From Caldithrix abyssi DSM 13497 (GTDB lineage: Bacteria; Electryoneota; AABM5-125-24; Hatepunaeales; Hatepunaeaceae), in NCBI GenBank assembly GCA_945865405.1, contig CAMBDS010000002.1, positions 2,368-66,367 on the forward strand: a DNA stretch of 64,000 nt. Reading direction: 5' to 3'. The stretch's first letter is position 1, and each line of letters begins with the position of its first letter. Below the pieces are notes generated by a model. The model searched no databases. It saw nothing but the letters and a program-made list of their open reading frames with translations, and had not been told where the DNA came from. A program made the position numbers and the translations under genes. Shown piece after piece: positions 5,573-45,822 of the stretch.

Positions 5573-5635
5573 ATGCTGGCAGACGAGACATCTGCCAGCA
5601 CAAGAGCGGACTTAAAGTCCGCCCTCCAAGAATAG
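5573..5635. repeat. REP-like paired hairpin element, copy 1 (just 3' of rsbW-like stop)
   Basis: gctggcagacg-agaca-tctgccagc, then gcggact-taa-agtccgc CCTCCAAGA. Confidence 0.7.
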
Positions 5636-6429: not shown

Positions 6430-6467
6430 TTTGTTTTCTTGGAGGGCGGATTCTTACTCCGCCTCAA

Positions 6468-26125: not shown

Positions 26126-27492
26126 AGATAATTACAAAAAAGCCGTTTAGGTATCCGCTGGCTTACGCCCTCGTCTGCCAGCATCAAACCCAAGCTGCGG
26201 GTAGCCCGCCGAGCCTGGCGGGTAGCCCGGCGAGCCTGGCGGGTAGCCCGGCGAGCTTTGCTCGGCGGGTCTTTCCACTTACTCTCTTTTTCACTTTGCT
26301 CATCTTTTCGTCTATTTCTATCATTGGTTGCACGACAGAAACTGTCTCTCCTCGCTACAACAACATCCGTCCTGAGATTATCCTGTTTGAAACCCTTCCC
26401 GACGATTCCATCGAAGTCCAGGATACACTGGTTCTCGAGTGTGAAGCCGATGATCCCGAGGGCCAACCGCTAAGCTATTTCTGGCATGCAGAAAGCGGCA
26501 CAATTCTCTCTGATTCTACCGTAACGACACGATGGGTCGCTCCTCGAGTTCCCGGTAGCTATTGGATAAATTTAACAGTAAGTGATCCTTTTTCAGATAC
26601 AACCGCTTCTCGTTTGGCAATAGTACTACCCCGAGGTGCGACAAATCGTGCACCTGAAATTGTGCAGATTACTACAGTCCCTGATACAGTAACTGCAGGT
26701 GAAATAGTAAACTGCGCAGTACAGGCGACAGACGAAGAGGAAGATGCCCTCAGCTACATCTGGACAGCACAGGCGGGCGAATTCGACCGTTCGTTTGGCT
26801 CCCAAGTTCACTGGGCGGCACCTGCTGAGTTAGGCGAGTATTATATTAAAGTTGCCGTTACCGACGGCAACCACTCCATTTCTGATTCACTTTCAGTTTT
26901 GGTTGCGGCGGACACAGTAACTCTTTATGATGCTGATTTTACTATAGATCAAGTAAGTGGAGCATGGGGGAGTATAGGCTTGTTGGCAGGGTTGGGGGAT
27001 AGTGAGGGTATTAACCAAATAGAATGGGATTCTACAACTCACGCAATGTCAGTTACTTCCAAAACAACTTATGGCACTTATGGATTCAGATTAATAGGCC
27101 GTAATTTCGGCCCCGGAACGTTTTACTGCACCGTGAAAGTCCTTAACGGTGAATATCATAGGATTGCTTTTGTACCAAAACTGATCGACAGGCAAAACTA
27201 TGTTATATTTGGTATCGATCCTTATGTAGGAAGCTGGCAGGTCTTGCGATGTACTGCAGGAACAATGCAATACCTTTCGGAAGGCTGGAACACTTTCGAC
27301 TTGAATAACCCGCTAAGGTTTGAATATAAAGAATCCAATAACCGCGCCACCGCATCTATAAATGGTCAAATGCTTTGGTCTGGCGCAGTTGCACCCGAAT
27401 TTCAGAGAAGTGCTCCGATGGGAGTTGCACTATACGGCACCAACCAATCAGGCCCCGCTCTCTTCGATAACTTCATGATCTCAACACCCTAA
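26122..27492 (+). CDS. lipoprotein with two Ig/PKD-like repeats and a C-terminal beta-sandwich domain
   Basis: 456 aa. ATG overlaps the upstream stop as ATGA. Lipobox-like SISIIGC. Two ~90-aa repeats are PEIILFETLPDD...YFWHAESG and PEIVQITTVPD...YIWTAQAG. The 5' coding region contains a REP-like hairpin and a 3x21-nt tandem repeat. Confidence 0.55.
   Translation: MKIITKKPFRYPLAYALVCQHQTQAAGSPPSLAGSPASLAGSPASFARRVFPLTLFFTLLIFSSISIIGCTTETVSPRYNNIRPEIILFETLPDDSIEVQDTLVLECEADDPEGQPLSYFWHAESGTILSDSTVTTRWVAPRVPGSYWINLTVSDPFSDTTASRLAIVLPRGATNRAPEIVQITTVPDTVTAGEIVNCAVQATDEEEDALSYIWTAQAGEFDRSFGSQVHWAAPAELGEYYIKVAVTDGNHSISDSLSVLVAADTVTLYDADFTIDQVSGAWGSIGLLAGLGDSEGINQIEWDSTTHAMSVTSKTTYGTYGFRLIGRNFGPGTFYCTVKVLNGEYHRIAFVPKLIDRQNYVIFGIDPYVGSWQVLRCTAGTMQYLSEGWNTFDLNNPLRFEYKESNNRATASINGQMLWSGAVAPEFQRSAPMGVALYGTNQSGPALFDNFMISTP
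26155..26185. repeat. REP-like hairpin, copy 4, inside annotated 5' end of lipoprotein ORF
   Basis: ccgctggcttacgccctcgtctgccagcatc is the near-exact reverse complement of gatgctggcatacgagggcgtctgccagcgg at 45754-45784. Confidence 0.7.
26197..26259. repeat. 3 x 21-nt tandem repeat (GCGGGTAGCCCGSCGAGCCTG) in 5' coding region of lipoprotein gene
   Basis: Encodes AGSPPSL AGSPASL AGSPASF. On the opposite strand it gives RRATRQA repeats. Confidence 0.85.
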
Positions 27493-28427: not shown

Positions 28428-29360
28428 TTACTTCTTTGTCTTATAAAGCGATGCGAGAATTGATATTGTCAAAATCCCCAATATGACCCCCAGCGAAAAT
28501 GGTATCGGAATCTTAACAAATTCGACTATTGTCATCTTAATCCCCACAAAGATAAGGATGACCGACAACCCAAGCTTGAGGTAAACGAACCTGTCCACAA
28601 TATCTGCGAGCAGGAAATAGAGTGACCGAAGTCCCAGGATTGCAAAGATATTCGATGTGAACACGATGAACGGATCTCGCGTCACGGCAAAGATCGCCGG
28701 GATCGAGTCAACCGCGAAAATCACGTCGGTTGCTTCGATGGCGACCAGTGCCAGCAGTAGCGGCGTCGCGAATCTCCGCCCGTTCTCCAACACCATGAAC
28801 TTTTCGCCGCGAAACCCGTCGGTGACGGGCATGAATCGCCGTGTCAGCTTGACCAGTGGATTCTTCCCCGGATCGCTTTCGCCATGCTTCTGGATCATCA
28901 GCTTGATGCCGGTGACGATCAGAATTCCGCCGAACAGGTAAATCGTCCAGTGAAACTTCTCCAGGAGTGCGCTTCCAGCAAAAATGAAGATTATCCTCAT
29001 GATCAGCGCACCAAAGATCCCCCAGAACAGGACGCGATGCTGGTAAAGAGGCGGAATTGCAAATGCTGAGAAAATAACGACAAAGACGAAGATGTTGTCG
29101 ACTGAGAGCGCCTTTTCGATCAGGTATCCGGTGACGAATTCCATCGCTCGTTCGGGACCGAACCATACCTTTACGAGGTAGGCGAACCCCAACGACAGCG
29201 CGATCCAGACGATGCTCCAGATCAAGGCGCTCCTCAGGCTTGTCACTTTCGACTTCCTGCGGAATACTCCGAGGTCGAGAGCTAACATTACAAAAATCAG
29301 CGCAAAAAATCCGAGCCACATTGACGGCGTGCCGACCGTATCGATACCGAATAGGTTCAT
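28428..29360 (-). CDS. TerC/Alx family integral membrane protein
   Basis: 310 aa, multi-pass. TerC hallmarks are EKALSVDNIFVFVVIF and ATDVIFAVDSIPAIFAVTRDPFIVFTSNIFAILGLRSLYF. Confidence 0.85.
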   Translation of the reverse strand: MNLFGIDTVGTPSMWLGFFALIFVMLALDLGVFRRKSKVTSLRSALIWSIVWIALSLGFAYLVKVWFGPERAMEFVTGYLIEKALSVDNIFVFVVIFSAFAIPPLYQHRVLFWGIFGALIMRIIFIFAGSALLEKFHWTIYLFGGILIVTGIKLMIQKHGESDPGKNPLVKLTRRFMPVTDGFRGEKFMVLENGRRFATPLLLALVAIEATDVIFAVDSIPAIFAVTRDPFIVFTSNIFAILGLRSLYFLLADIVDRFVYLKLGLSVILIFVGIKMTIVEFVKIPIPFSLGVILGILTISILASLYKTKK

Positions 29361-29439: not shown

Positions 29440-29640
29440 CCCGGTAGGACAGGTTTCCAAACCTGTCCCTCTTCTTTCAGGAGGACAGGCGTCCCTGACT
29501 TTCCCCACCGCTTGCGGGGGGGACAAAGGGGGCGTGTGCTTTCGTCACTCTCTCCCGTACGACAGGCGTCCCTGACTGTCATCTTATCCCCCTCTGCTTG
29601 CAGGGGGGAATTAAAGGGGGGGTGGTTTCCCTATTGCAGG
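29440..29640. repeat. cluster of palindromic repeat units (GGACAGGTTTCCAAACCTGTCC; CCCCACCGCTTGCGGGGGG; GACAGGCGTCCCTGAC) between TerC and HK genes
   Basis: The perfect 22-nt palindrome ggacaggtttccaaacctgtcc lies at 29448-29469. G/C-run flanked ccgcttgcgg lies at 29506-29520. gacaggcgtccctgact occurs twice. Confidence 0.8.
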
Positions 29641-29701: not shown

Positions 29702-32700
29702 TCATTTTTCCTTATCCCTATCCAACACCTCCCGCACCTTGGTAGCCAGTTCAACAGGTCTGAAAGGTTTCGGGAGATATGGTGAATCAGGGTCGATTAT
29801 TCCCTGATTGACGACAGCGTTTGTGGTATATCCCGACATGAAAATCACCTTCAAGCCGGGTATATGTCCGCGCATGATTGCCGCAAGTTCATTCCCCTTC
29901 ATCTTCGGCATCACTACATCCGTCAACAACAGGTCGAATTTCAACGATCCAGCGAGGTAAAGGTCGATAGCCTCTTGCCCGTTGGAAGCCGCTGTCACTT
30001 TATAACCGTAGGCTTCGAGGAATTTCACAGCAATCTCTCGCACTGCTCGCTCATCTTCCACTACAAGGATAGACTCGTCGCCTCTAAGTTTCGAGTTGTC
30101 CGTTGTGAGGTTAACCGCATCAATGTTACTCTCTTCCTGAGCCGCTGGCAGATATATCTTGAACGCTGTACCTTTCCCCACTTCTGAATAAACATTGATC
30201 GAGCCATTACTCTGCTTGACAATGCCATAAACAGTCGAAAGCCCCAGCCCCGTCCCCTTTCCAACTTCTTTTGTTGTGAAGAAAGGATCGAAGATTTTGC
30301 TGACGATTTCGCTCGACATTCCTATCCCGGTATCGCTAACCGCAAGCATGACGTGCTGGCCGGCATTCGCTTCAGGATAGAGTTTGATGTATTCCTTATC
30401 AAGAACAATATTGTCTGTTTCTATCGTGAGACTGCCCCCGTCCGGCATGGCATCACGGGCGTTGACGGCAAGATTAATAATCACCTGCTCTATCTGACCC
30501 GGATCGACTTTAACCTTCCAAAGATTAAGCGACCCCTTGCAAACCAAAGTGACATCTTCACCAATCAGACGCCGCAACATTTTTTCCATATTATTGATCG
30601 AATAATTCAAATCAACTATTTTCGGTGCCAAAGCCTGTTTTCGACTGAATGCCAGCAATTGACGCGTAAGGCTTGCCGCTCTATCTGCCGCATCGGCAAT
30701 TTCATTGATATCTTCCCGTACTGGATCATTGTCTTTTAACTTAATCATCGCCAATTCACAGTTACCAGAAATCACCGTAAGAAGATTATTGAAGTCGTGT
30801 GCTACTCCGCCCGCGAGCTGGCCTATCGACTCCATCTTTTGCGACTGGCGTAGTTGACCTTCCAGAATTTTTCGAGCTGAGAGATCACGCAATACAGAGA
30901 CTACCATCCAGTTGTCGCTGAATAGAAATGTATGCGCATTGACCTCAACCGGTACTTTTATCCCGTCCTTGCTTTGAACCAGCATCTCAAAATTATTTAC
31001 TCCTTCTTGCAAAAGTCGCTCACTTCTTTGAAGCATATGTGGACGATCTTCTTCCGCCGCAATGTCGAAGGGGGTCATACAAAGTAATTCATCATGGGTA
31101 AAACCCAGCAATTCAGTAGCGGCAAGATTTACTTCTGTGAACGTTGATAATTTGTCTGGTTCAATATGGCGTACGAGAATTGCGTCACGGGCATTGTCGA
31201 AAAGTGCGCGAAATTTCTCTGCCGATTCTTTGATCATCTTATCAGCACGAATTCGTTCGGTGATATCGCGAATGTTACATTGGATAACCGGCTTGCCTGC
31301 TACATCATAAACATTGCTGATAAACTCAACCAAATGTTCGTTGCCTGCCTTTGATTTTAATGGCAGATTTTCGTAACGAATATACTCTCTATCCTGCAAT
31401 TTCAAGAATTTGGCTTTACTCTCTTCGACGTCGATCCCCCAGCCAATATCCCAGATAGCCTTATCCTTCAGTTCTGCTAAAGTATATCCCAGCATATCCA
31501 GTATAAACGGATTCGCATCGACAATCTTCCCCGATTCCGAATCGAGTATAAGGATTCCATCCTTAGCCGCCTCGAAAAGACGTCGATAGCGCAATTCTGA
31601 CGCAATCGACTCTCGCTCAGCCTTGAGCTTCTCTGTAACATCTTGGACATCAATCAAAGAAGCGGGCATACCTTTGTAGATGAATGGAACTGCATTCATC
31701 TCAACGTTGAATGGCGTTCCGTCCAATTTTAAAAGAATTCCCTTTATTCCTCGCCTCGGAACTCCAGTATTAAGCATATCCTCAATATCTGCCAGAACAT
31801 AGGAACGGGCATATTCAGGAATTCGTTCAATAATGGGGTGTCCGATGACCTGGTTAGGGTCGGTGGCGCCATACATTGCAAGGCCTGATCGGTTGACAAA
31901 TTGCGTTACCCCACCACATTGAAACTCTATCATCGACGAAGTATTCTCGACCACCAGACGATGGAGTTCCTCAGAATGCACCAGTTCTGCTTCAGCAAGT
32001 TTGCGCTTAGTAATATCCTGGTTAACACCATAAGTTTTTACAGTTCTTCCTGTTGAATCTTTTTCTATGAATATCTGAACAGAAAAGTGCCCGATCTGGC
32101 CATCAGCATACAAAACACGGTGTTCGAGGATGCTACTATAATTTGGATCTTCTGTTGAAAGAGCTTTTCCAATCTCTTCTCCAACAAGTGGAAGTTCATC
32201 AGGATGAACGTACTTACCTGCATAGTCGGCTGACGACATTTTATAACCGCCAGCTTCAATTGCCGTGGTTCGAAATAGTGAGTAAAAGGCATCATTGAAA
32301 GTAAACTGATCTGCTGCTACATCATATTCCCAAGGTCCAAGCCGCGCAATGTCAATGGCGTTGGCAAGCTGTATTTTGCTGTTTCTCAGCTCCAGTTCGG
32401 CATTTTTTCGTTCGGTTATTACATCGAACACAGCTACAAAATGATCCCGTTTGGGGCTGTAAATCAACAACGAAAACCACTGCTTCAGAGCTTCTACGTG
32501 GAACTCAATCTTTTGCGTTTCGCCTCCGCGTGATACAGCTCCATAAATTCTAAACAATTCCTTGTCACTCTCAAGTATCCCCGGGATGACGTCCGAAACC
32601 TTTTTTCCAACAACATTTTTGAGTCCGGTCAGCGATTCGAAGGATTCATTGACATCAAGATAGATAAAATCAATAGGTTCATTGTTTTCGTATAACATTT

Positions 32701-33748
32701 GACAATAGGCGTACCCCTCCTGCATATTCTCAAAAAGTGATCGATACTTTATCTCGCTTGCGACTAGTTCCTTTTTCTGCTCGGAAGCTTTTGTCACTAA
32801 CCTTGCCAGAGACCCCAGCTCATCGTCCCTTTTGAGCATATCATTGAGAAGTGACGGGTCGTCTCTCCGTAAGCTTTCTGACAAGTTTTGTAACGGCTGA
32901 TAAATAAATTGATAAGCTCCAATTAATATTAACGCCATTAATCCCAACATAAATAGTGAATAATCAATAATATCCCTCTTGGTCGAGGCGGCAATTTTCG
33001 CAAACGAAGCAGCCTCTTTAGATGAAATCAGATAACCTTGTACTGTATCATTCCAACTCTTTAGCTCAAACCTGAAGTCGATTACTCCGATATCTGGCTC
33101 ATTATCATGGAGATGAGTGAGATTGCTTGCTTGATTCTCTGAATTGGGATACTCAACTGTAACATGACTCTCTATCAAGTCTGAAACCATCGTTACGTAA
33201 TCACTATCCCACAAAACCCCTGTAATAAAATATCCCTGAGGAGTGGTCTTCCTGTCTTGATCTGCTGAAGGTTGTAGCGGAGCGGTTCGAATTTCAAGTT
33301 TTCCCCAGGTTGAGTTGACAAAAAAATGATTGAACCAGTCGTCACTGATTACAGATTTAAGATCAAACGGCAACTCGATTGTCGTGAACTCTTCCTCTTC
33401 GTCCTTCATAACGTTATAAACAACATGAAAGTCCTTGTCTGTCAACCACAACGCGTCAACCTTGAATGTGGAGGTTGCAGGTTGAAGATTTTCAATAGCC
33501 CACACTGTATCAGGTGCCTTGACGAACTCAAGAATGTCATCCCAATAGCTGTAGTCATACGTGAGCAATCTCTGTGATTCATTAATAAGGGATAGCTGAT
33601 TATTGAAAATCCTAAGATCGCCAGCTTCTCTATCTTGATGAATCTCAATTAATTCCTGTTGCTCACTTTTCAACAGGAAATGCCCGCCCACTGCGAAAAG
33701 CAGCACGAACGAAGCGGCTAACAGAACAATTTTTGACTTAGTGTTCAT
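29702..33748 (-). CDS. hybrid sensor histidine kinase with periplasmic sensor, multiple PAS/PAC domains, HisKA, HATPase_c and C-terminal receiver
   Basis: 1348 aa. N-terminal transmembrane helix, then a second one about 250 aa later. Several PAS-like segments. H-box is GGVAHDFNNLLTVISG. GHKL motifs are present. The C-terminal REC domain is LVVEDERAVREI...LLLTDVVMPKMKG. Confidence 0.85.
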   Translation of the reverse strand: MNTKSKIVLLAASFVLLFAVGGHFLLKSEQQELIEIHQDREAGDLRIFNNQLSLINESQRLLTYDYSYWDDILEFVKAPDTVWAIENLQPATSTFKVDALWLTDKDFHVVYNVMKDEEEEFTTIELPFDLKSVISDDWFNHFFVNSTWGKLEIRTAPLQPSADQDRKTTPQGYFITGVLWDSDYVTMVSDLIESHVTVEYPNSENQASNLTHLHDNEPDIGVIDFRFELKSWNDTVQGYLISSKEAASFAKIAASTKRDIIDYSLFMLGLMALILIGAYQFIYQPLQNLSESLRRDDPSLLNDMLKRDDELGSLARLVTKASEQKKELVASEIKYRSLFENMQEGYAYCQMLYENNEPIDFIYLDVNESFESLTGLKNVVGKKVSDVIPGILESDKELFRIYGAVSRGGETQKIEFHVEALKQWFSLLIYSPKRDHFVAVFDVITERKNAELELRNSKIQLANAIDIARLGPWEYDVAADQFTFNDAFYSLFRTTAIEAGGYKMSSADYAGKYVHPDELPLVGEEIGKALSTEDPNYSSILEHRVLYADGQIGHFSVQIFIEKDSTGRTVKTYGVNQDITKRKLAEAELVHSEELHRLVVENTSSMIEFQCGGVTQFVNRSGLAMYGATDPNQVIGHPIIERIPEYARSYVLADIEDMLNTGVPRRGIKGILLKLDGTPFNVEMNAVPFIYKGMPASLIDVQDVTEKLKAERESIASELRYRRLFEAAKDGILILDSESGKIVDANPFILDMLGYTLAELKDKAIWDIGWGIDVEESKAKFLKLQDREYIRYENLPLKSKAGNEHLVEFISNVYDVAGKPVIQCNIRDITERIRADKMIKESAEKFRALFDNARDAILVRHIEPDKLSTFTEVNLAATELLGFTHDELLCMTPFDIAAEEDRPHMLQRSERLLQEGVNNFEMLVQSKDGIKVPVEVNAHTFLFSDNWMVVSVLRDLSARKILEGQLRQSQKMESIGQLAGGVAHDFNNLLTVISGNCELAMIKLKDNDPVREDINEIADAADRAASLTRQLLAFSRKQALAPKIVDLNYSINNMEKMLRRLIGEDVTLVCKGSLNLWKVKVDPGQIEQVIINLAVNARDAMPDGGSLTIETDNIVLDKEYIKLYPEANAGQHVMLAVSDTGIGMSSEIVSKIFDPFFTTKEVGKGTGLGLSTVYGIVKQSNGSINVYSEVGKGTAFKIYLPAAQEESNIDAVNLTTDNSKLRGDESILVVEDERAVREIAVKFLEAYGYKVTAASNGQEAIDLYLAGSLKFDLLLTDVVMPKMKGNELAAIMRGHIPGLKVIFMSGYTTNAVVNQGIIDPDSPYLPKPFRPVELATKVREVLDRDKEK

Positions 33749-34584: not shown

Positions 34585-35994
34585 TTATCCGTGAATCTGC
34601 ATCTTATTGACCGCCAGTGCCGCCTCCTTCAAGGCTTCGGAAAGCGTTGGGTGAGCGTGGATCGTGCGGCCAATATCCTCGGACGACGCGACAAACTCCA
34701 TCGCCATAGCGGCCTCAGCGATCAGGTCGGAAGCTCGCGGCCCCAATATGCTGACCCCCAACACCCTGTCGGTCTCAGCGTCAGCGACAACCTTCACCAA
34801 CCCCTCCGCACTGCCAAGGCTTAGTGCCCGCCCGTTCCCGCGGAAGTAGAACTTCCCGGTCTTGACCGTCTTCCCCGCCGCTTTCGCCTCATCCTCCGAC
34901 AACCCAACCACCGCAAGCTCAGGATTCGTATAGACAACATTCGGGACAACGTCGTAATTGACGTGCCCGGCGTGACCTGTGAGCTGCTCGGCTAACGCGA
35001 CGCCTTCTTCGGATGCCTTGTGCGCCAGCATCGGCCCGCGGATCAGATCGCCGATAGCGTAAACGCTGTGGATGTTGGTCTGGAAGTGGTCGTCAACCAC
35101 GACTTTGCCACGCTCGATGGCGACGCCAGCCTCAGCCAAGCCTGCGCCTTCGCTGAAGGCACGCCTGCCTATCGCGACAAGGATTTTGTCGCCAATGAGG
35201 CTCTGCTCAGCGCCGTCCTTGTCGGTGTAGGTGAGGGTGGCTTTTTTGCCTTTGACGGTCGCGCCGGTGACTTTGGCGTTAAGGATGAATTCGATGCCCT
35301 GATCAGTCAAAGATTTCTGGAGCATCGTCGTCAACTGCTTGTCGGCGAACGGGACGATGTTGGGGAGCATCTCCACGACGGTGACTTTGCTGCCGAGCCG
35401 CCGCCAGACGCTGCCAAGCTCAAGGCCGACCGCGCCAGCGCCGACGACGATCAGGTGGTCGGGGACTTTGTCGAAGGCGAGAGCTTCGGTCGAGGAAACG
35501 ACGAACTTGCCGTCGAACTTCATGAAGGGAAGCTCGATGGGGACAGAGCCCATGGCGAGGACGATGCTCTTAGTTTGGAGTTTGGAGTTTGGAGTTTGGA
35601 ATTGCGGGTCGGCGCTGTCAAGAATTTCGACTTCGCCGGTACCGATGAGCTTTCCAGTCCCTTTGATGACCGTGACCTTATTCTTCTTCATCAGCAAGGC
35701 GATGCCGTCAGTCAGGGTGTTGACGATGTTAGTTTTTTTGCCGAGAAGCTGGGGCAGGTCAAGCGAGACGCCGGAGGTTTTGATGCCGTAGCCAGGAAAT
35801 TTATGGAGGACGTCGTGGAACCATTCGGAGGTTTCGAGCATGGCTTTGGAAGGGATACAGCCAACGTTTAGGCACGTTCCGCCGAGGCGGGCGTCCTTTT
35901 CGACGAGGGCGACTTTCATGCCAAGCTGGGCGGCACGGATGGCGCAGACATAGCCTCCGGGGCCTGAGCCGATGACGACAAGATCGAAGTTCAT
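34585..35994 (-). CDS. lpdA: dihydrolipoyl dehydrogenase (E3)
   Basis: 469 aa. FAD-binding site is VVIGSGPGGYVCAIRAAQLG. Redox-active disulfide is GGTCLNVGCIPSK. Carries an in-frame (TTTGGAG)n insert encoding QTPNSKLQTK. Confidence 0.9.
   Translation of the reverse strand: MNFDLVVIGSGPGGYVCAIRAAQLGMKVALVEKDARLGGTCLNVGCIPSKAMLETSEWFHDVLHKFPGYGIKTSGVSLDLPQLLGKKTNIVNTLTDGIALLMKKNKVTVIKGTGKLIGTGEVEILDSADPQFQTPNSKLQTKSIVLAMGSVPIELPFMKFDGKFVVSSTEALAFDKVPDHLIVVGAGAVGLELGSVWRRLGSKVTVVEMLPNIVPFADKQLTTMLQKSLTDQGIEFILNAKVTGATVKGKKATLTYTDKDGAEQSLIGDKILVAIGRRAFSEGAGLAEAGVAIERGKVVVDDHFQTNIHSVYAIGDLIRGPMLAHKASEEGVALAEQLTGHAGHVNYDVVPNVVYTNPELAVVGLSEDEAKAAGKTVKTGKFYFRGNGRALSLGSAEGLVKVVADAETDRVLGVSILGPRASDLIAEAAMAMEFVASSEDIGRTIHAHPTLSEALKEAALAVNKMQIHG
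35574..35601. repeat. (TTTGGAG)4 heptanucleotide repeat inside lpd CDS
   Basis: tttggagtttggagtttggagtttggaa. Same tract as at 2365. Encodes FQTPNSKLQTK. Confidence 0.85.
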
Positions 35995-36650: not shown

Positions 36651-37097
36651 TTAAGATCCTGTGCGTGAGTGGTGTTTATATAATGTAGTTTCAATGTCAT
36701 TCAAGAGAAATGGATTCAAGTTGTCTTGTAATATCTTGTATTTAATATAGATATAGTTTTGGGGCGTATAGTTCTCTATGCCAAATTCTCTTAATGTCAT
36801 GGGTGATCCAAACTCAATAGTTTTTCTTATAGTAATTGCTAATCCCAAATTACTTTGGCTGTAGTAATCGAGAAATCTGTCTATGTCAATACCACCAATA
36901 GAACCATACTTATTCCATAGACTCTCCGGAGAATCAACGTCCAGTTCATTTACAAAAAATAACCCGACAACTTTAGAAGTTGGTCTGGTTGAATATACGA
37001 GAATCGCATCCGGTTTTTTGCTAAAGGCAATTTTCCTAAACTCAACATGTTTTCGTCCAAGGAATATTGATGCTGTAAATTCGGGATGGATTGGCAT
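36651..37097 (-). CDS. ASCH-domain (PUA-like) protein
   Basis: ORF track gives 36651..37274, which overlaps the upstream gene. The internal start MPIHPEFTASIFLGRKHVEFRK matches the canonical ASCH N-terminus. Further ASCH-type segments are ...AILVYSTRPTSKVVGLFFV...LWNKYG.. and ..LAITIRKTIEFGSPMTLREFG. Lies in the low-GC island. Confidence 0.6.
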   Translation of the reverse strand: MPIHPEFTASIFLGRKHVEFRKIAFSKKPDAILVYSTRPTSKVVGLFFVNELDVDSPESLWNKYGSIGGIDIDRFLDYYSQSNLGLAITIRKTIEFGSPMTLREFGIENYTPQNYIYIKYKILQDNLNPFLLNDIETTLYKHHSRTGS

Positions 37098-37117
37098 CAA
37101 TGCGATCACCGAATTAA

Positions 37118-38596
37118 CTAGTGAATCCAATTTAGAACCTCCTTTGAAATTGACTGAATAGAGCGTGGTGCCATTTTCAGCAATCCATTTTGAATTAATT
37201 TCTCCAAAGAAATTGGCTGTTTCAGTATAATTGCCTGGCGAAAAAGAATGGCAATTACTTTTCTCTTTCGGCAAAGCTCCTCGATTTGATTGTAAGTATA
37301 TACCGTTCTTTTACTAACTAAACGAGCGATCCTATCTGGGTTTTCAGTTTGAATTGCTTTTTCGACAACCCCAACCGCCACGATACTTTTTCGTACCTTT
37401 GATGAATAAAAAAGAATAATCGATCCGGCATCAATTGCCTTAATACTTGAATTTGATAAATAAGCTTTCCGAAGAGAATTACCTGCTTCATTGACGCCAA
37501 CTAAAGTACTAAGTTGCTCCTCCACTTCAGGGAAGAGAACTTTCTGAAATCCAGATAATATTGGAACGATAAAAGTATTCCCTTTCTCACGATGAATTAT
37601 GTGAGGCCCAAATTTAATGTTGTATTCTAAAGAACCGAGGTTCTCGCTATCTAACACATTTGGAGAAAAAGATTTAATATAGAACACATCTCGAAACTGC
37701 TCATTGATAATATCTCTATAAAACCCGAACGTTTGTACCAAGGCAATGAGCGATACGTGTTTGTCAAAGATAGTCAAGTAACAATAGGAAAAGTCATTTG
37801 AATTCGCGTACTCAAATACGGATTTTAAAAGCAGTTCTCCATAGCCGAATCCAATAAAATTGCTTGCTACTTTAAATGAACAAATCTTGAGTACTTTCTT
37901 CTGAAATTCTAAATTCTTTGCAGGATAATCTTCGCTTGATTCGTGTTTGATTATACAAACCGCGGCGTATGGTGTCGATTCATCTCCATCAATAAGCCAA
38001 ATTGATCGATGTTCTCTTTTGACCTTTCTTGACCATTCATCAAACTTTGGATAATCATCACGAAAACTGTCGAAAAAAGGCGCAGAGAAATCGATTTCAT
38101 AAGCGTCTACTTTTCTTACAGATGGTGGAGGAGTAAATGATTCGTCATATAAGAATCGTTTTAGATAGTTGAGTGCCTCTTGAACCGAAAAAATGCGATC
38201 TGAAAAACCTAATTTATCCCCACGTTTCATTAAACGAACATCTTCTGTTATCAAACCATCAACCGCGTCTGCGTGCAGAGCCCCAATCATCTGAAAATCG
38301 ACCCAATCATTGCTTTTATTGCTAACTTCTCCTAACTGCTGAACCACGAATTCAAACGAATGTTTCGGTGTACTAACCAATTGGTATTTACCGAAACTGT
38401 TAAGTCGAATACTCTTTCTTTCCTGATCCCTATCTCGTAATATATCGAATTTTGAGCTCTCGTGAATACAAATATGATGTCCCGCCGTGCTAATCAGTCG
38501 ATGCAAGTCTTGTATTTGCTTGGACATTTGACTAAAATCATCCAATTTCGTTGGCTCTAACGGGATGAAAATATTGGTATCAATCAGAAATTTCAA
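37118..38596 (-). CDS. PIN nuclease - GNAT acetyltransferase - ASCH/PUA-like three-domain fusion protein
   Basis: 492 aa. TTG start 4 nt after the sucB stop. The PIN domain is MKFLIDTNIFIPLE...GLITEDVRLM, with acidic residues at the canonical positions. GNAT motifs A and B are KVLKICSFKVASNFIGFGYGELLLKSVFEYA and YCYLTIFDKHVSLIALVQTFGF. The C-terminal ASCH-like domain is GSIILFYSSKVRKSIVAVGVVE...VIAILFRQAIILKQPISLEKLIQNGLLKMAPRSIQSIS. About 38% GC against about 55% in the flanks. Confidence 0.6.
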   Translation of the reverse strand: MKFLIDTNIFIPLEPTKLDDFSQMSKQIQDLHRLISTAGHHICIHESSKFDILRDRDQERKSIRLNSFGKYQLVSTPKHSFEFVVQQLGEVSNKSNDWVDFQMIGALHADAVDGLITEDVRLMKRGDKLGFSDRIFSVQEALNYLKRFLYDESFTPPPSVRKVDAYEIDFSAPFFDSFRDDYPKFDEWSRKVKREHRSIWLIDGDESTPYAAVCIIKHESSEDYPAKNLEFQKKVLKICSFKVASNFIGFGYGELLLKSVFEYANSNDFSYCYLTIFDKHVSLIALVQTFGFYRDIINEQFRDVFYIKSFSPNVLDSENLGSLEYNIKFGPHIIHREKGNTFIVPILSGFQKVLFPEVEEQLSTLVGVNEAGNSLRKAYLSNSSIKAIDAGSIILFYSSKVRKSIVAVGVVEKAIQTENPDRIARLVSKRTVYTYNQIEELCRKRKVIAILFRQAIILKQPISLEKLIQNGLLKMAPRSIQSISKEVLNWIH

Positions 38597-38600
38597 TCGT

Positions 38601-39893
38601 TCACACTCCCATCATCAACCGTTCCGGCTGTTCGATGCACTCGACGATTTTTTTCAGGAAGGCGACAGACTCGCGGCCGTCAATCAGGCGGTGGTCATAT
38701 GAAAGCGCGAGGTACATCATCGGACGGACGACGATCTGGTCAGAGTCACCAACCACCACAGGACGCTTCTTGACCCCATGCAAGCCCAAAATCCCCGGCT
38801 GAGGCGGGTTCAGGATCGGCGTCGAAAGCATCGAACCGAAGACCCCACCATTGGAAATCGTGAAGACGCCGCCTTGCAAGTCGTCCAAGGTGATCGTCCG
38901 GTTGCGAGCCTTCTCTGCGTAGCGGGCAATTGCAGCCTCAAGCTCGGCAAAACCGAGCTGGTCAGCATCACGAATGACCGGCACAACCAAACCGCGCTCC
39001 GTCGAGACAGCTACGCCGATGTCGTAAAAGTGGTTCTCGACGATTGAGTCGCCGTCGATCCGGGCGTTGACTGCGGGGACGGCTTTCAAAGCCTCGACGG
39101 TCGCCTTCACGAAGAACGACATGAACCCAAGTTTGATACCGTATTTTGCCTGAAATGGTTCCTGCAAGTGAGCGCGCGCAGTCATCACCGCCGACATATC
39201 GACCTCGTTGAAGGTGGACAGTGTGGCAGAGTTATGCTGAGACTCTACCATCCGCTCGGCGATGCGGTGGCGGAGGGAAGACATGGGGCGACGAGTTGTT
39301 CTCTCGGCAATGGAAGGTTTGACACCCCCCCCTGCCCCCCCCGCAAGCGGTGGGGGTAGAGAGACAGGTTTGGAAACCTGTCCTACCGAAACTGCTTTCA
39401 GGGCATCTTCTTTGGTGATGCGGCCGCCTTTGCCTGTGCCGACGATCAGCGCGGGGTTAAGTTGCTCCTCGGCGACGATACGACGAACGGAAGGAGCCAG
39501 GTCGTTTAGATTAGCTTTGAGAGATTCGATGCCTGCGGTTGGGGAGAGAGCGGGAATTTCTGAGGAGGAGGAGGAGACACCCCCCCCTGCCCCCCCCGCA
39601 AGCGGTGGGGATGCGACAGGTTTGGAAACCTGTCCTACCGGGGCGGGAGCCGCTACGGCGTCGGTGTCGATGGTGGCGACGGAACTGCCGATCAAGACGG
39701 TGTCGCCGGGTTTGGCGGAGAGGCTGATTCGTCCGGCCTTCTCTGCGGTGACGGTCATAGAGACTTTGTCGGTCTCAAGCTCGAAGAGAGCGTCGTCCGC
39801 CTTGACGAAGGCTCCGTCGGAAACTTTCCATTCAGCGAGGATACCTTCCGAGATCGACTCGCCTACGGCCGGGACTTTGACGGTAATGCGCAT
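38601..39893 (-). CDS. sucB: dihydrolipoamide succinyltransferase, E2 of 2-oxoglutarate dehydrogenase
   Basis: 430 aa. Lipoyl domain is LFELETDKVSMTV. Two Ala/Pro/Gly linkers. Subunit-binding domain is IVGTGKGGRITKEDA. Catalytic DHRLIDG. Both linkers are encoded by copies of a palindromic repeat element. Confidence 0.85.
   Translation of the reverse strand: MRITVKVPAVGESISEGILAEWKVSDGAFVKADDALFELETDKVSMTVTAEKAGRISLSAKPGDTVLIGSSVATIDTDAVAAPAPVGQVSKPVASPPLAGGAGGGVSSSSSEIPALSPTAGIESLKANLNDLAPSVRRIVAEEQLNPALIVGTGKGGRITKEDALKAVSVGQVSKPVSLPPPLAGGAGGGVKPSIAERTTRRPMSSLRHRIAERMVESQHNSATLSTFNEVDMSAVMTARAHLQEPFQAKYGIKLGFMSFFVKATVEALKAVPAVNARIDGDSIVENHFYDIGVAVSTERGLVVPVIRDADQLGFAELEAAIARYAEKARNRTITLDDLQGGVFTISNGGVFGSMLSTPILNPPQPGILGLHGVKKRPVVVGDSDQIVVRPMMYLALSYDHRLIDGRESVAFLKKIVECIEQPERLMMGV
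39302..39375. repeat. copy of the palindromic element inside sucB linker 2 (in-frame)
   Basis: cccccccctgccccccccgcaagcggtgggggtagagagacaggtttggaaacctgtcctacc is the reverse-complement of the 29440-29520 units. Encodes VGQVSKPVSLPPPLAGGAGGGV. Confidence 0.8.
39582..39650. repeat. second copy of the palindromic element inside sucB linker 1 (in-frame)
   Basis: cccccccctgccccccccgcaagcggtggggatgcgacaggtttggaaacctgtcctacc. Encodes GQVSKPVASPPLAGGAGGGV. Confidence 0.8.
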
Positions 39894-39984: not shown

Positions 39985-41061
39985 TTATCTTGCGCCCCTA
40001 TTCTTCCGCCACAGCTTTATAATGCCGAGGCCGCATCCGCTCGCCAGCCTTGTTCCGTCGGGGCTGAACGCGACAGAAAGGACCCAATCATTATGCCCCG
40101 TAAGCGTCCCAAGTAGCGCCCCGTCCGACGGCCGCCACAGCTTGATGCGGTTGTCGCCGCCCCCACTTGCCAGCGTCATCCCGTCGGGACTAAAGGCGAC
40201 GGACGAAACTCCGCCCTTATGCCCCTCGAGCGTCCGCAGACAGGAACCGTCCGAAGCTCGCCATAGATTGATGGCATTATCCCGGCTCCCGCTTGCCAGC
40301 GTCGTCCCGTCAGGGCTGAAAGCGACAGAATGGACCCAATTCGAATGTCCTTCGAGAGTCCGCAGGCGCTCCCCGTCCGAAGCCCGCCACAGCTTGACGG
40401 TTTTATCCGTGCTTCCACTCGCCAGAGTCGCCCCATCGGGGCTGAAGGCGACAGTTAGGATCCCTTTCTTATGCCCTTCGAGCGTCCGCAGACGGGCACC
40501 GTCCGAAGCCTTCCACAGCTTAATGGTTTTATCCAGACTCCCGCTCGCCAGCGTCGTTCCATCGGGGCTGAAGGAGACGGAATTGACCCAATTCGCATGC
40601 CCTTCGAGCGTCCGCAACAGCGACCCGTCCGAAGCCCGCCACAGCTTGATGCGGTTGTCGCATCCCCCACTCGCCAGAGTCGTCCCGTCGGGGCTGAAGG
40701 CGACGGATAAGACTCCATTATTGTGACTCTCAATTGTCTTCAGTAGTTTCCCGTCCGAAGTACGCCACAATTTGATGGTTTCATCCATGCTCCCACTCGC
40801 CAGAGTTGTCCCGTCGGGGTTGAAGGCGACGCACATTGCCCCTCCACCAGTATGCCCCTCGAGTGTCCTTTCGAGCGTGACGTCAATATCTTGCACGGCG
40901 GTGGCTTCGTACGCAAAACAAAGACATATGAGAACGCTAAGGCTGTGAATTCTAATCCAATCAACAAGGCACGAAAGAGGATAAAGCCTCCAAGTTTTTC
41001 CGTCCCAATGCCTAACAGCCTCTTCGTTTCTTTGTGTCTTCGTGTTAAAATCCTTGCACAC
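39985..41061 (-). CDS. WD40-repeat beta-propeller protein (7 near-identical repeats)
   Basis: 358 aa. Seven repeats of the form LEGH...V.SVAFSPDGTTLASGS.D.TIKLWRASDG..LRTL. Hydrophobic N-terminal segment. Confidence 0.8.
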   Translation of the reverse strand: MCKDFNTKTQRNEEAVRHWDGKTWRLYPLSCLVDWIRIHSLSVLICLCFAYEATAVQDIDVTLERTLEGHTGGGAMCVAFNPDGTTLASGSMDETIKLWRTSDGKLLKTIESHNNGVLSVAFSPDGTTLASGGCDNRIKLWRASDGSLLRTLEGHANWVNSVSFSPDGTTLASGSLDKTIKLWKASDGARLRTLEGHKKGILTVAFSPDGATLASGSTDKTVKLWRASDGERLRTLEGHSNWVHSVAFSPDGTTLASGSRDNAINLWRASDGSCLRTLEGHKGGVSSVAFSPDGMTLASGGGDNRIKLWRPSDGALLGTLTGHNDWVLSVAFSPDGTRLASGCGLGIIKLWRKNRGAR

Positions 41062-45476: not shown

Positions 45477-45674
45477 GAGGAAAGTTAAAGGTTGAAAGTT
45501 AAAAGTTTAATGGTGCCAGAGACGTCATGTGTCCGGGAAGTTAATATAAGCAATTTTTCAGATTTTTTGTGCGTAAAGGAAAGAGATATCCTTCCCCCCG
45601 ATCAGGTCAGGGGCTACGACCGTTCAGGATACATTCTGCCTCAGGCAGACGAGGACGTCTGCCTGAAAGAAACG

Positions 45675-45700
45675 GAAGCGCAAGCAAGCTTGCGCTTCCG
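45675..45700. repeat. perfect 26-nt palindrome ggaagcgcaagc-aa-gcttgcgcttcc in trpS-SDR intergenic region
   Basis: Read directly. 12-bp arms. Confidence 0.85.
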
Positions 45701-45712
45701 GAACTGGTAGAC

Positions 45713-45822
45713 GGGCGGACAGGAGTGTCCGCCCTCCAAGAGGATGTGTCTTGATGCTGGCATACGAGGGCGTCTGCCAGCGGATTAGAAGAGCGGACTG
45801 AAAGTCCGACCTCCAAGAAACC
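45713..45822. repeat. REP-like hairpin cluster, copies 2-3 (just 3' of SDR gene stop)
   Basis: ggcggaca-ggag-tgtccgcc CTCCAAGAG, then gctggcatacg-aggg-cgtctgccagc, then gcggact-gaa-agtccgA CCTCCAAGA. Shares arms and the CCTCCAAGA tail with copy 1. Confidence 0.7.

What the first reader, a model, noticed from the sequence alone, without database searches (positions are those of the whole stretch)
39302..39650. A palindromic intergenic repeat element occurs twice, in-frame, inside the sucB (E2) coding sequence, where it encodes both inter-domain linkers
The element is cccccccctgccccccccgcaagcggtgggg...gacaggtttggaaacctgtcctacc. Its perfect 22-nt palindrome is GGACAGGTTTCCAAACCTGTCC. It occurs at 39302-39375 and 39582-39650 within sucB. 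It also occurs in several intergenic units between TerC and the histidine kinase (29440-29640), in the opposite orientation.

In sucB both copies translate to the Ala/Pro/Gly-rich flexible linkers (G)QVSKPV(A/S)(S/L)PPPLAGGAGGGV. These separate the lipoyl, subunit-binding and catalytic domains. A mobile palindromic unit therefore appears to have been fixed as, or copied from, the E2 linker. If it inserted, each gain would add a linker-length segment.

Antisense ORFs in this stretch are artefacts of the repeat.
Basis: seen in the sequence. Interest (0 to 1): 0.7.

Follow-up and report, generated by a model that had tools for sequence, protein, structure and literature searches.

The report
REP hairpin repeats encoding SucB linkers
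Both flexible linkers of this bacterium's 2-oxoglutarate dehydrogenase E2 protein (SucB) are encoded largely by short palindromic repeats that also occur between genes. This is a clear new example of an already described phenomenon, REP elements fixed in-frame inside genes.

Summary
sucB (38601-39893, minus strand) carries two in-frame copies of a composite repeat, and each copy encodes most of one inter-domain linker. The same pieces lie in the intergenic gap at 29444-29625.

The "element" is two separate modules.
- Module A is a GTAG-tagged REP hairpin, GTAGGACAGGTTTCCAAACCTGTC, 24 nt, read as VGQVSKPV.
- Module B is a G/C-rich palindrome with a G-run tail, about 35 nt, read as PPLAGGAGGGV.

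Module A is a dispersed, mostly intergenic repeat in the closest sequenced relative, a Calditrichota MAG, and in MAGs of several other phyla. REP-associated Y1 transposase genes flanked by same-stem hairpins occur in relatives.

Close SucB orthologues carry different mosaics of such modules. These include B on the opposite strand and other hairpins shared with intergenic DNA. None of the 113 more distant listed homologues shows a module-encoded motif. The relative's sucA has a clean 117-nt three-hairpin in-frame insertion that the window's sucA lacks.

In-frame REPs, including some in E2 genes of Opitutus terrae and Sphingopyxis alaskensis, were catalogued in 2013. I therefore file this as a new member of a known kind, of moderate interest.

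The parts
38601..39893 (-). sucB, the dihydrolipoyl succinyltransferase (E2o) gene, 430 aa. Domains: lipoyl 4-75, E3-binding 134-164, catalytic 198-428.
   Evidence: ORF, Pfam, homologues, AlphaFold2 model.
39615..39640 (-). Module A copy in linker 1: CGGTAGGACAGGTTTCCAAACCTGTC. It has a GTAG head and a 9-bp stem around a CC centre; the RNA fold gives an 8-bp stem with a 4-nt loop. It encodes V86-V93, VGQVSKPV.
   Evidence: (I2).
39576..39610 (-). Module B copy in linker 1: CCCCACCGCTTGCGGGGGGGGCAGGGGGGGGTGTC, a G/C palindrome with two G8 runs. It encodes about P96-V106, PPLAGGAGGGV.
39363..39388 (-). Module A copy in linker 2, 26/26 identical to the linker-1 copy. It encodes V170-V177.
   Evidence: (I3).
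39321..39355 (-). Module B copy in linker 2, 35/35 identical to the linker-1 copy. It encodes about P180-V191.
29442..29468 (+). Intergenic module A copy (CGGTAGGACAGGTTTCCAAACCTGTCC, 10-bp stem). It lies between the 3' end of the histidine kinase gene (29702-33748, minus) and the start of the TerC gene (28428-29360, minus).
29477..29499 (+). Module C: TCAGGAGGACAGGCGTCCCTGAC, a decayed GGACAGG...CCTGTCC-type hairpin. The same TCAGGAGGAC junction follows A in the linkers of orthologues P0004 and P0003.
29503..29537 (+). Intergenic module B copy. The first 20 nt are identical to the sucB copies and the tail is ACAAAGGGGGCGTG. It is out of frame relative to A here.
29557..29580 (+). Module C': GTACGACAGGCGTCCCTGACTGTC. 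It has the GTAC-headed, same-stem form of the hairpins that flank the Y1 transposase gene in relative locus L009.
29588..29625 (+). Module B': CCCCCTCTGCTTGCAGGGGGGAATTAAAGGGGGGG, a diverged B copy. Its stem keeps pairing through a CG-to-TA double change.

Best explanation
The two SucB linkers are encoded mainly by two kinds of short dispersed palindromic DNA repeat that entered, or were exchanged into, the linker-coding DNA and were kept. Both modules are read in an open frame that gives a Gly/Pro/Ala/Ser/Val-rich, unstructured peptide.

Module A is a GTAG-tagged REP, a 24-nt hairpin. Module B is a G/C-rich palindrome with a G-run tail.

What is shown:
- DNA-level identity between the coding and intergenic copies.
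- Dispersed, mostly intergenic copies of A in relatives.
- Module mosaics that differ between orthologues, with B on either strand.
- Clean in-frame REP-cluster insertions in neighbouring and unrelated genes of relatives.
- Y1 (RAYT-type) transposase genes flanked by same-stem hairpins in relatives.

What is inferred:
- The modules are moved as single-stranded hairpins by a RAYT-type HUH/Y1 enzyme. This would explain the lack of target-site duplication. Alternatively they are patched in by recombination with intergenic clusters.
- Only events that preserve the frame and avoid stop codons at structurally tolerant sites, such as E2 swinging-arm linkers and surface loops, survive.
- Within a gene the two linkers are homogenised by gene conversion or parallel exchange. 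This would explain why each species has the same module set in both linkers.

The peptide itself probably serves only as a flexible spacer.
For: - Statistics: exact 26-nt (A) and 20-35-nt (B) identity between the sucB and intergenic copies, with 0 matches expected by chance.
- Synonymous sites: third-codon positions of conserved sucB domains are only 49-54% identical between the window and its orthologues. Module A is 24/24 identical in the window's linker 1, the window's linker 2 and linker 1 of P0004.
- Distribution: the 20-mer of A occurs in 31 loci of GTDB genomes, and the 24-mer in 19 metagenome loci. It is nearly always preceded by GTAG and is mostly intergenic. Six of the genome loci are from one Calditrichota MAG. 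That MAG also encodes the syntenic 78%-identical SucB, P0003.
- Transposase association: L009 (same MAG) has a Y1_Tnp gene (PF01797, E=4.9e-10) flanked on both sides by GACAGG-loop-CCTGTC-GTAC hairpins. L016 has a Y1_Tnp gene with an A-like hairpin just upstream.
- Orthologue mosaics: P0004 has A+C+E in both linkers. P0003 has degenerate A plus a hairpin identical (1 mismatch in 25) to intergenic copies in its own genome. P0002 and P0006 carry B on the opposite strand.
- Clade restriction: the module-encoded motifs are found only in P0001-P0007 of the 120 listed homologues.
- Filled versus empty sites: the sucA of L034 has a 117-nt three-hairpin in-frame insert between GG and PPR that is absent from the window and L037. 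Aldo/keto reductases in L046 and L005 carry A, or C2-A-C2, in a loop that is 7-8 aa shorter in PDB 1pz1 and 3n2t.
- Structure: the REP-encoded residues lie in segments with pLDDT below 50 and no secondary structure. The hairpins fold as predicted.
- Precedent: PMC3733652 lists GTAG/CGTC REPs in-frame in E2 genes of O. terrae and S. alaskensis.
Against: - No Y1 transposase gene was found in the 64-kb window. Only 28% of the source contig is visible, so copy number and a cognate RAYT in this genome are unknown.
- Module B has no GTAG tag. Five of its eight known copies are in E2 linkers (window x2, L036, L037 and a second E2 in L022). Pro runs followed by Gly runs would by themselves produce a C-run/G-run palindrome. 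B could therefore be linker-born.
- In T9SS C-terminal domains A replaces a loop of equal length rather than adding 8 residues. That fits patch-like exchange better than simple insertion.
- Exact copy numbers are low compared with classical REPs, at six loci in the relative MAG.
- RAYT activity on these hairpins is untested.
Confidence: 0.8

Rival explanations
1. This rival differs in mechanism and is not exclusive of the best explanation. The modules were not transposed. They were copied into the linkers by homologous or microhomology-mediated recombination (gene conversion) with intergenic mosaic clusters, and between the two linkers. In this view a REP-occupied site is a cassette that is repeatedly overwritten.
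For: - The intergenic unit A-C-B has the same order and the same A/TCAGGAGGAC junction as the P0004 and P0003 linkers. The window's linkers are the same unit without C.
- Each species has the same module set in both linkers.
- In T9SS C-terminal domains A, or another GTAG hairpin, occupies the same loop at the native length of 8-9 aa.
- There are no target-site duplications.
Against: - The sucA insert in L034 and the A copy in the L046 aldo/keto reductase are net additions at previously empty sites. These need an insertion step.
- The spacers between A and B differ in the two linkers, GCAT versus TCTCTAC. This argues against a single duplicated A+B block.
Confidence: 0.3
2. The repeat is native linker-coding sequence. 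An ancestral linker peptide was duplicated within sucB, and a fragment of it was later copied into the intergenic region. The palindromes are by-products of Pro (CCC) and Gly (GGG) codon runs.
For: - B copies are concentrated in E2 linkers, including a paralogous E2 in L022.
- E2 linkers are typically Ala/Pro-rich and variable (established knowledge).
Against: - A is a GTAG-headed hairpin found intergenically in many genomes and phyla, and in unrelated genes.
- B lies on opposite strands in different orthologues.
- B' has a compensatory stem change in non-coding DNA.
- B-like copies occur outside any E2 gene: two in the window's intergenic gap, and one that overlaps the first codons of the listed lipA ORF in L022, upstream of its conserved KPPWLK motif.
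- None of the 113 more distant listed SucB homologues has the peptide.
- Synonymous sites in A are frozen while the rest of the gene is about 50% diverged at those sites.
Confidence: 0.07
3. The hairpins are kept in the linkers for a nucleic-acid function. Stable mRNA hairpins and a G-quadruplex-prone GGGGGGGGCAGGGGGGGG tract at each domain boundary would pause ribosomes and aid co-translational folding. Alternatively the G8 runs give slippage-based on/off switching of SucB.
For: - Both linkers fold into two adjacent hairpins. Minimum free energies are -42 and -34 kcal/mol, with z-scores of -2.2 and -1.7.
- There are four G8 runs on the sense strand.
- Both A copies are perfectly conserved although the protein-level constraint on a linker is weak.
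Against: - Orthologues use quite different modules, or none (P0005; P0007 in linker 1), at the same positions.
- A is degenerate and no longer pairs in P0003.
- The z-scores are modest.
- No known RNA family matches the window.
Confidence: 0.1
4. The repeat is an assembly artefact, in which repeats caused a chimeric join inside sucB in this metagenome contig.
For: The window is a single short-read metagenome contig, and the exact protein occurs on one contig only.
Against: - The reading frame and all three domains are intact.
- Independent assemblies from other samples (NCBI MAG, Logan, JGI, ENA) show the same kind of modules at the same two positions.
- Synteny with relatives is preserved.
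Confidence: 0.02

Closest known systems
GTAG-tagged repetitive extragenic palindromes (REPs) with their REP-associated tyrosine transposases (RAYT, 'REPtrons'). Sources: Nunvar et al. 2010 (PMC2817692) and Di Nocera et al. 2013 (PMC3733652).
   Same: Module A has the unpaired GTAG head directly followed by a 9-10-bp stem with a very short loop. It is multi-copy and mostly intergenic, and it occurs in clusters with other hairpins. In relatives, Y1_Tnp genes are flanked by hairpins with the same stem.
   Different: - Exact copy numbers seen are low.
- The same 20-24-nt sequence occurs in MAGs of several phyla, while the two associated Y1 proteins compared are only 35% identical.
- The intergenic cluster here is head-to-tail rather than alternating.
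- Module B has no GTAG or CGTC tag.
- No RAYT is visible in the window itself.
Intragenic REPs in E2 genes listed by Di Nocera et al. 2013 (Additional file 3): Opitutus terrae Oter_4191 (2-oxoglutarate dehydrogenase E2, aa 190-204) and Oter_4192 (dihydrolipoamide acetyltransferase, aa 127-142), and Sphingopyxis alaskensis Sala_1235 (pyruvate dehydrogenase E2, aa 180-187).
   Same: REP units lie in frame in 2-oxoacid dehydrogenase E2 proteins. The listed residue numbers fall in the range where inter-domain linkers lie in E2 proteins of this size, which I infer and did not check. They encode short Pro/Ala/Gly-rich peptides.
   Different: - The REP sequence families and the phyla differ.
- Here both linkers are occupied, by a two-module mosaic that makes up about 60-75% of each linker.
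- Orthologue comparison shows module turnover, strand inversion and within-gene homogenisation. None of these appears in the passages of that paper I read.
Rickettsia palindromic elements (RPEs), in-frame palindromic insertions in protein-coding genes (Ogata et al. 2000, from my own knowledge; discussed in PMC3733652).
   Same: Palindromic repeats inserted in frame into conserved proteins at tolerant surface sites, and also present in intergenic DNA.
   Different: RPE-1 is much longer, about 100-150 bp, and is specific to Rickettsia. No sequence similarity was tested or is expected. The modules here are 24-35 nt and combine as mosaics.
Bacterial interspersed mosaic elements (BIMEs) of Enterobacteria.
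   Same: Composite arrays of different short palindromic units, both in intergenic DNA (29442-29625) and inside genes (L005, and sucA of L034).
   Different: Classical BIMEs alternate REP orientation with defined linker motifs and are extragenic.
MITEs
   Same: Small, non-autonomous and multi-copy, and occasionally found in frame.
   Different: There are no terminal inverted repeats distinct from the hairpin itself and no target-site duplications. The units are far shorter than MITEs.

Membership tests
GTAG-tagged REP (REP/RAYT system) | An unpaired GTAG tetranucleotide directly 5' of the stem-loop. | tested here: met
   All three window copies of A have it, as do most of the 31 genome copies. 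It was part of the 24-nt query for the 19 metagenome copies.
GTAG-tagged REP (REP/RAYT system) | A short (20-40 bp) imperfect palindrome able to form a stable stem-loop. | tested here: met
   An 8-9-bp stem with a 4-nt loop. The 26-nt unit folds at -13.3 kcal/mol with z = -3.8. The DNA folds give the same hairpin. Variant copies keep pairing through double changes, e.g. GACAGATTTCCAAATCTGTC.
GTAG-tagged REP (REP/RAYT system) | Many dispersed copies per genome, predominantly extragenic. | tested here: inconclusive
   The closest relative MAG has exact copies in 6 separate contigs, mostly intergenic. Only 64 kb of the window's own genome is visible, with 1 intergenic and 2 coding copies. Exact-match scans undercount variants.
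GTAG-tagged REP (REP/RAYT system) | A cognate RAYT (Y1/HUH transposase) gene flanked by the REPs (a REPtron). | tested here: met
   This was met in relatives only. L009:177-644 is Y1_Tnp (E=4.9e-10) with 4 upstream and 2 downstream GACAGG...CCTGTC-GTAC hairpins. L016:5548-6057 is Y1_Tnp (E=8.5e-7) with GTAGGGACAGGTTTCTAAACCTGTCCCTAC just upstream. None was found in the window.
GTAG-tagged REP (REP/RAYT system) | RAYT-dependent binding, cleavage or mobilisation of the hairpin. | not testable with these tools
   This needs biochemistry or genetics.
In-frame intragenic palindromic repeats (RPE / intragenic REP class) | The unit or cluster length is a multiple of three, the frame is open, and the host protein's domains are intact. 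| tested here: met
   A is 24 nt. The A+spacer+B blocks are 63 and 69 nt. The sucA insert is 117 nt. Pfam domains are intact.
In-frame intragenic palindromic repeats (RPE / intragenic REP class) | Orthologues exist that lack the insert (empty sites). | tested here: met
   sucA of L034 versus the window and L037 gives a clean site. The aldo/keto reductase of L046 was compared with PDB homologues. The SucB motifs are absent from P0008-P0120. The SucB linkers themselves cannot be aligned, so no base-precise empty site exists for sucB.
In-frame intragenic palindromic repeats (RPE / intragenic REP class) | Located in linkers or surface loops rather than in the structural core. | tested here: met
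   pLDDT is below 50 and there is no secondary structure at residues 79-127 and 171-204. In the aldo/keto reductase the insert aligns to a gap in the solved homologues 1pz1 and 3n2t, just before their IQPPY motif.
MITE | Terminal inverted repeats plus target-site duplications. | tested here: not met
   No duplicated flanks are seen at the sucB, aldo/keto reductase, sucA or intergenic copies.
Known structured RNA family (Rfam) | A match above a family's gathering score. | tested here: not met
   There were 0 matches in the whole window.

The most novel reading that the evidence does not exclude
In this Calditrichota-related clade, REP-type hairpin modules may act as exchangeable cassettes inside genes. 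The same structural sites would be repeatedly overwritten with different modules, on either strand, always in a tolerated frame. Candidate sites are the two E2 linkers, one loop of T9SS sorting domains and an aldo/keto reductase loop. The result would be a RAYT- or recombination-driven route for rapid turnover of linkers and loops.

In addition, one 24-nt REP is kept identical in at least six phylum-level groups although the associated Y1 transposases are only about 35% identical. This implies either very deep co-conservation of a REP with its enzyme or inter-phylum spread of the hairpin.
Probability: 0.2. Interest if true: 0.7.

Novelty: new member of a known kind. Interest (0 to 1): 0.45.

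Why it matters
This is an unusually clean case of repeat DNA supplying working protein sequence. About 60-75% of each swinging-arm linker of a core TCA-cycle enzyme is repeat-encoded.

Orthologue comparisons catch the process at several stages. They show gain, decay, module swapping and strand inversion, and both linkers of a species carry the same module set.

It extends in-frame REPs to Calditrichota-like bacteria. It also gives concrete loci for testing how REPs move: the clean sucA empty site, the candidate REPtron in L009, and a Y1 gene that itself carries the hairpin.

For annotation it has practical uses. It explains the spurious antisense and intergenic ORFs built from these repeats. 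It also flags four G8 runs inside sucB as likely sites of frameshifts or sequencing errors.

It does not reveal a new kind of system.

Tried and rejected
- Rfam scan of the whole window: no family matched.
- Literature search for the literal A and B sequences: no paper.
- Target-site duplications: none at any copy.
- RAYT gene in the window: tblastn with remembered RayT and IS200 probes hit only relatives' loci.
- Recent inter-phylum transfer of a REPtron as the reason for the cross-phylum identity of A: not supported for the pair tested, because the L009 and L016 Y1 proteins are only 35% identical.
- Chance or protein-level convergence as the source of A: rejected, because of the GTAG heads in non-coding DNA and the frozen synonymous sites. 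One genome hit, L011, is probably native peptide deformylase sequence (LRQVSKPV) and not an element.
- Long open frames spanning A in the high-GC loci L008, L019, L024, L025 and L014: judged spurious or upstream of the real start.
- An nhmmer profile of B on all held DNA (about 0.5 Mb): it found only one further copy, overlapping the first codons of the listed lipA ORF in L022. The direction of transfer for B stays open.
- The source contig could not be walked beyond the window with the look-up rules.
Full report
**1. The observation**

sucB is the minus-strand ORF 38601-39893, 430 aa. Pfam finds a lipoyl domain (4-75), an E3-binding domain (134-164) and the acyltransferase catalytic domain (198-428).

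On the coding strand, linker 1 contains CGGTAGGACAGGTTTCCAAACCTGTC-GCAT-CCCCACCGCTTGCGGGGGGGGCAGGGGGGGGTGTC. This lies at window 39640-39576 and encodes V86-V106. Linker 2 contains the same two blocks joined by TCTCTAC, at 39388-39321, and encodes V170-V191.

The 22-mer and the 19-mer cores each have three or four matches in the window, against 0.00 expected from shuffles.

The gap between the histidine kinase and TerC genes carries, on the plus strand:
- block A (29442-29468);
- a 35-nt spacer containing a third hairpin, module C;
- block B (29503-29537);
- a second unit, C' plus B' (29557-29625).

An AlphaFold2 model gives pLDDT below 50 and no secondary structure for residues 79-127 and 171-204. 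The repeat-encoded residues therefore sit in the two flexible linkers.

- The 22-mer is not a perfect palindrome. It has 10-bp arms around a CC centre.
- The first coordinate interval is shifted by about 20 nt.
- The "element" is two modules, which are separated by another module in the intergenic copy.

**2. What module A is**

A scan of one genome per GTDB species for GACAGGTTTCCAAACCTGTC gave 31 loci. About one match would be expected by chance from the length of the pattern and the size of the collection. The loci come from MAGs labelled Gemmataceae, Pirellulales, Kuenenia, Anaerolineae/Chloroflexota, Caldithrix, Nitrospinota, Fibrobacter and Gammaproteobacteria.

In nearly all of them the hairpin is preceded by GTAG. 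Most copies lie in short open stretches or upstream of gene starts, so they are intergenic.

A metagenome scan with the 24-mer gave 19 more loci.

GTAG followed by a short stem-loop is the defining anatomy of the GTAG superfamily of repetitive extragenic palindromes (PMC3733652).

Six of the genome loci belong to one MAG, "uncultured Caldithrix sp." GCA_964355675.1 (phylum Calditrichota). That MAG also encodes P0003, which is the syntenic SucB with 78% identity. The window organism is therefore a relative of this MAG.

In locus L009 of that MAG, a 155-aa Y1_Tnp protein (PF01797, E=4.9e-10) is flanked by four upstream and two downstream hairpins. They have the form GGAGACAGG-loop-CCTGTCGTAC, which is the same stem as A with a GTAC head. 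This is the REPtron arrangement.

In a Chloroflexota MAG (L016), a Y1_Tnp gene has GTAGGGACAGGTTTCTAAACCTGTCCCTAC just upstream. It also carries an A copy in frame inside itself.

The two Y1 proteins are only 35% identical. Recent transfer of a whole REPtron therefore does not explain the cross-phylum identity of A for this pair.

**3. Orthologue comparison**

Seven close SucB homologues (P0002-P0008, 67-78% identity) have conserved domains but linkers that cannot be aligned. I fetched DNA for five of them (P0002, P0003, P0004, P0006, P0007) plus P0005. It shows that the linkers are mosaics of repeat modules.

| Orthologue | Linker 1 | Linker 2 |
|---|---|---|
| Window (P0001) | A + B | A + B |
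| P0004 | A + GGAGGACAGGGCTCCGTACCTGTCC + module E (TTTGCGAACGAAGTGAAGCAATC) | the same set, plus an extra A variant |
| P0003 | degenerate A + GGAGGACGGGTCTCCGCATCCGTCC + 7-nt tandem repeat | degenerate A + E + an identical 7-nt tandem repeat |
| P0002 | 7-nt arrays | B on the opposite strand (APPLPPPASGGE) + 7-nt arrays |
| P0006 | 7-nt arrays | B on the opposite strand (TPPPPPPASEGG) + 7-nt arrays |
| P0007 | none | one heptamer array |
| P0005 | none recognisable | none recognisable |

The P0003 hairpin GGAGGACGGGTCTCCGCATCCGTCC differs by 1 of 25 nt from intergenic copies in its own genome (L005, L022, L031).

The A/TCAGGAGGAC junction of the window's intergenic unit is the same as in the P0004 and P0003 linkers.

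Of the 120 listed homologues, only P0001-P0007 contain any module-encoded motif.

Third-codon positions in the conserved domains are only 49-54% identical between the window and these orthologues. Module A is 24/24 identical in three linkers. The shared sequence is therefore DNA-level repeat homology and not a conserved linker peptide.

Within each species the two linkers carry the same modules with identical sequence. This points to homogenisation by gene conversion, or to parallel exchange. That step is inferred.

**4. Direct evidence for in-frame gain in this clade**

- *sucA.* The relative's sucA (L034) has a 117-nt insert (7225-7341) made of three hairpins, the last of which ends in CTAC. 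It lies exactly between ...DTGHLGG and PPRASL.... The window's sucA and the L037 sucA have the uninterrupted site.
- *Aldo/keto reductase.* L046 carries a single A (MDRCVGS-VGQVSKPV-RIASLQPPY). Its orthologue in L005 carries hairpin-A-hairpin at the same place. Solved homologues 1pz1 and 3n2t are 7-8 residues shorter there.
- *T9SS sorting domains.* Four domains in L040, L042 and L045 have A, or a one-base variant, in the loop after ...TTI(T/S)(F/Y)S. The window's own T9SS protein (2266-4554, minus strand) has a different GTAG hairpin in that same loop. It also has two further GTAG hairpins and a heptamer array in frame.
- *Reading frame.* All eight exact coding copies that are read in the forward direction use the frame VGQVSKPV. 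Five of the six frames of the 24-mer are open.

**5. Module B**

B has no GTAG tag. Its known copies are:
- two in the window's sucB;
- two in the window's intergenic gap, where B' keeps stem pairing through a CG-to-TA double change;
- one each in the sucB of L036 and L037, on the opposite strand;
- one in the linker of a second E2 paralogue in L022;
- one B-like copy that overlaps the first codons of the listed lipA ORF in L022, upstream of its conserved KPPWLK motif.

Either strand of B encodes a Pro/Ala/Gly-rich peptide. I think B is another dispersed palindromic module. An origin within E2 linkers cannot be excluded for B alone.

**6. Mechanism**

Shown: the modules are shared between coding and non-coding DNA. 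They differ between orthologues. They can be net insertions without target-site duplication. Y1 transposase genes are associated with same-stem hairpins.

Inferred:
- The hairpins move by single-strand, RAYT-type mobilisation, or by recombinational patching from intergenic clusters.
- Selection keeps only frame-preserving, stop-free events at tolerant sites.
- The two linkers are homogenised.
- The encoded peptide works simply as a flexible spacer.

A nucleic-acid role remains a minor possibility. The candidates are mRNA hairpins, a G-quadruplex-prone tract, or slippage at the G8 runs.

**7. Comparison with what is known, and verdict**

In-frame REPs are documented. Di Nocera et al. 2013 report intragenic GTAG and CGTC REPs. 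Their supplementary table lists the O. terrae 2-oxoglutarate dehydrogenase E2, the O. terrae dihydrolipoamide acetyltransferase and the S. alaskensis pyruvate dehydrogenase E2. Rickettsia RPEs are the classic parallel.

The literal A and B sequences are not found in the searchable literature, and Rfam has no match.

It is a new member of a known kind. The added value lies in the double-linker mosaic, the turnover seen among orthologues, the density of coding-region REPs in this clade, and the cross-phylum identity of A.

Noticed in passing
window 2266-4554 (-): A T9SS-type secreted protein carries three GTAG-tagged hairpins in frame: GTAGCCCGGCTTCcccGAAGCCGGG at 2445-2469, GTAGGGCCGATctccgaATCGGCC at 2539-2562 and GGTAGTGCGGATTtaAATCCGCACTACC at 2649-2676. 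It also carries a CCAAACT heptamer array at 2363-2405, read as QSKLQTPNSKL. The first hairpin sits in the same sorting-domain loop that holds module A in other contigs.
   Followed up: partly
L034 7225-7341; empty site in window sucA near 43532/43533: The relative's sucA has a 117-nt in-frame insert of three hairpins between DTGHLGG and PPRASL. The window's sucA and the L037 sucA have the clean empty site.
   Followed up: yes
L046 3937-4938 (-) and L005 2312-3397 (-): Orthologous aldo/keto reductases carry module A alone (L046), or A flanked by two inverted GGAGGACGGATCTCCGCATCCGTCC hairpins (L005), in frame at the same site. Solved homologues 1pz1 and 3n2t are 7-8 residues shorter there.
   Followed up: yes
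L040 (A at 9119-9142), L042 (A at 2423-2446), L045 (A at 3243-3266; one-base variant at 536): Four T9SS C-terminal sorting domains have module A, or a one-base variant, read as VGQVS(K/Q)PV. It replaces a native 8-residue loop at equal length rather than adding to it. This looks like cassette replacement, not simple insertion.
   Followed up: partly
L002-L032 and L040-L058: The same 20-24-nt GTAG hairpin is exact in MAGs labelled as Planctomycetota (three lineages), Chloroflexota, Calditrichota, Nitrospinota, Fibrobacterota and Gammaproteobacteria. The two associated Y1 transposases compared are only 35% identical. The cause of this cross-phylum identity is unexplained.
   Followed up: partly
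L016 5548-6057 (-): A Y1 (RAYT-like) transposase gene in a Chloroflexota MAG carries an A copy in frame inside itself. It is read as DRFGNLS, lies in a 13-residue insertion after the HUH motif, and is accompanied by an A-like hairpin just upstream of the gene.
   Followed up: partly
window 39325-39342 and 39580-39597: There are four runs of eight G on the sucB sense strand, arranged as two GGGGGGGGCAGGGGGGGG tracts. These are prone to slippage and frameshift, could form G-quadruplexes, and are a likely site of sequencing errors.
   Followed up: no
window 35572-35600 (in lpdA, 34585-35994, -) and 2363-2391: A heptamer tandem repeat (AGTTTGG)x4 lies in frame in lpdA, read as PQFQTPNSKLQTKS. That segment is 5 residues longer than in PDB 3urh. 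Similar heptamer arrays (QILNLKSEILN, QISNFKFQISN, QIQNPKSKIQN) end the SucB linkers of orthologues.
   Followed up: partly
L022 6466-7974 (+) and L022 1016-1052: A second E2 paralogue in the relative MAG has a B-like module (APPPAPPASSGG) and other hairpin-like stretches in its long linker. A further B-like copy overlaps the first codons of the listed lipA (lipoyl synthase) ORF, upstream of its conserved KPPWLK motif.
   Followed up: partly
window 5573-5632, 6435-6462, 26153-26259, 45641-45820: Other intergenic palindromic modules recur in the window: TGCTGGCAGAcgagacaTCTGCCAGCA, GAGCGGACTnAAAGTCCGCCCTCCAAG and GGGCGGACAggagTGTCCGCCC. There is also a 21-nt x3 tandem repeat, GCGGGTAGCCCGGCGAGCCTG. 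The GAGCGGACT... module is shared with the Calditrichota MAG, where it flanks module A.
   Followed up: partly
window 39985-41061 (-), 36651-38596 (-) and the RelB/ParE-like pair upstream of sucA: The sucA-sucB-lpd cluster is interrupted by lineage-specific genes. A WD40-repeat gene lies between sucA and sucB, and it has five roughly 75%-identical 126-nt repeats. Two unrelated ORFs lie between sucB and lpd; relatives have a DUF4258 pair there instead. A toxin-antitoxin pair lies upstream of sucA.
   Followed up: no
L048 8165-8188: Here the TAG within the GTAG head of module A serves as the stop codon of the upstream cNMP-binding/ZIP protein gene.
   Followed up: no
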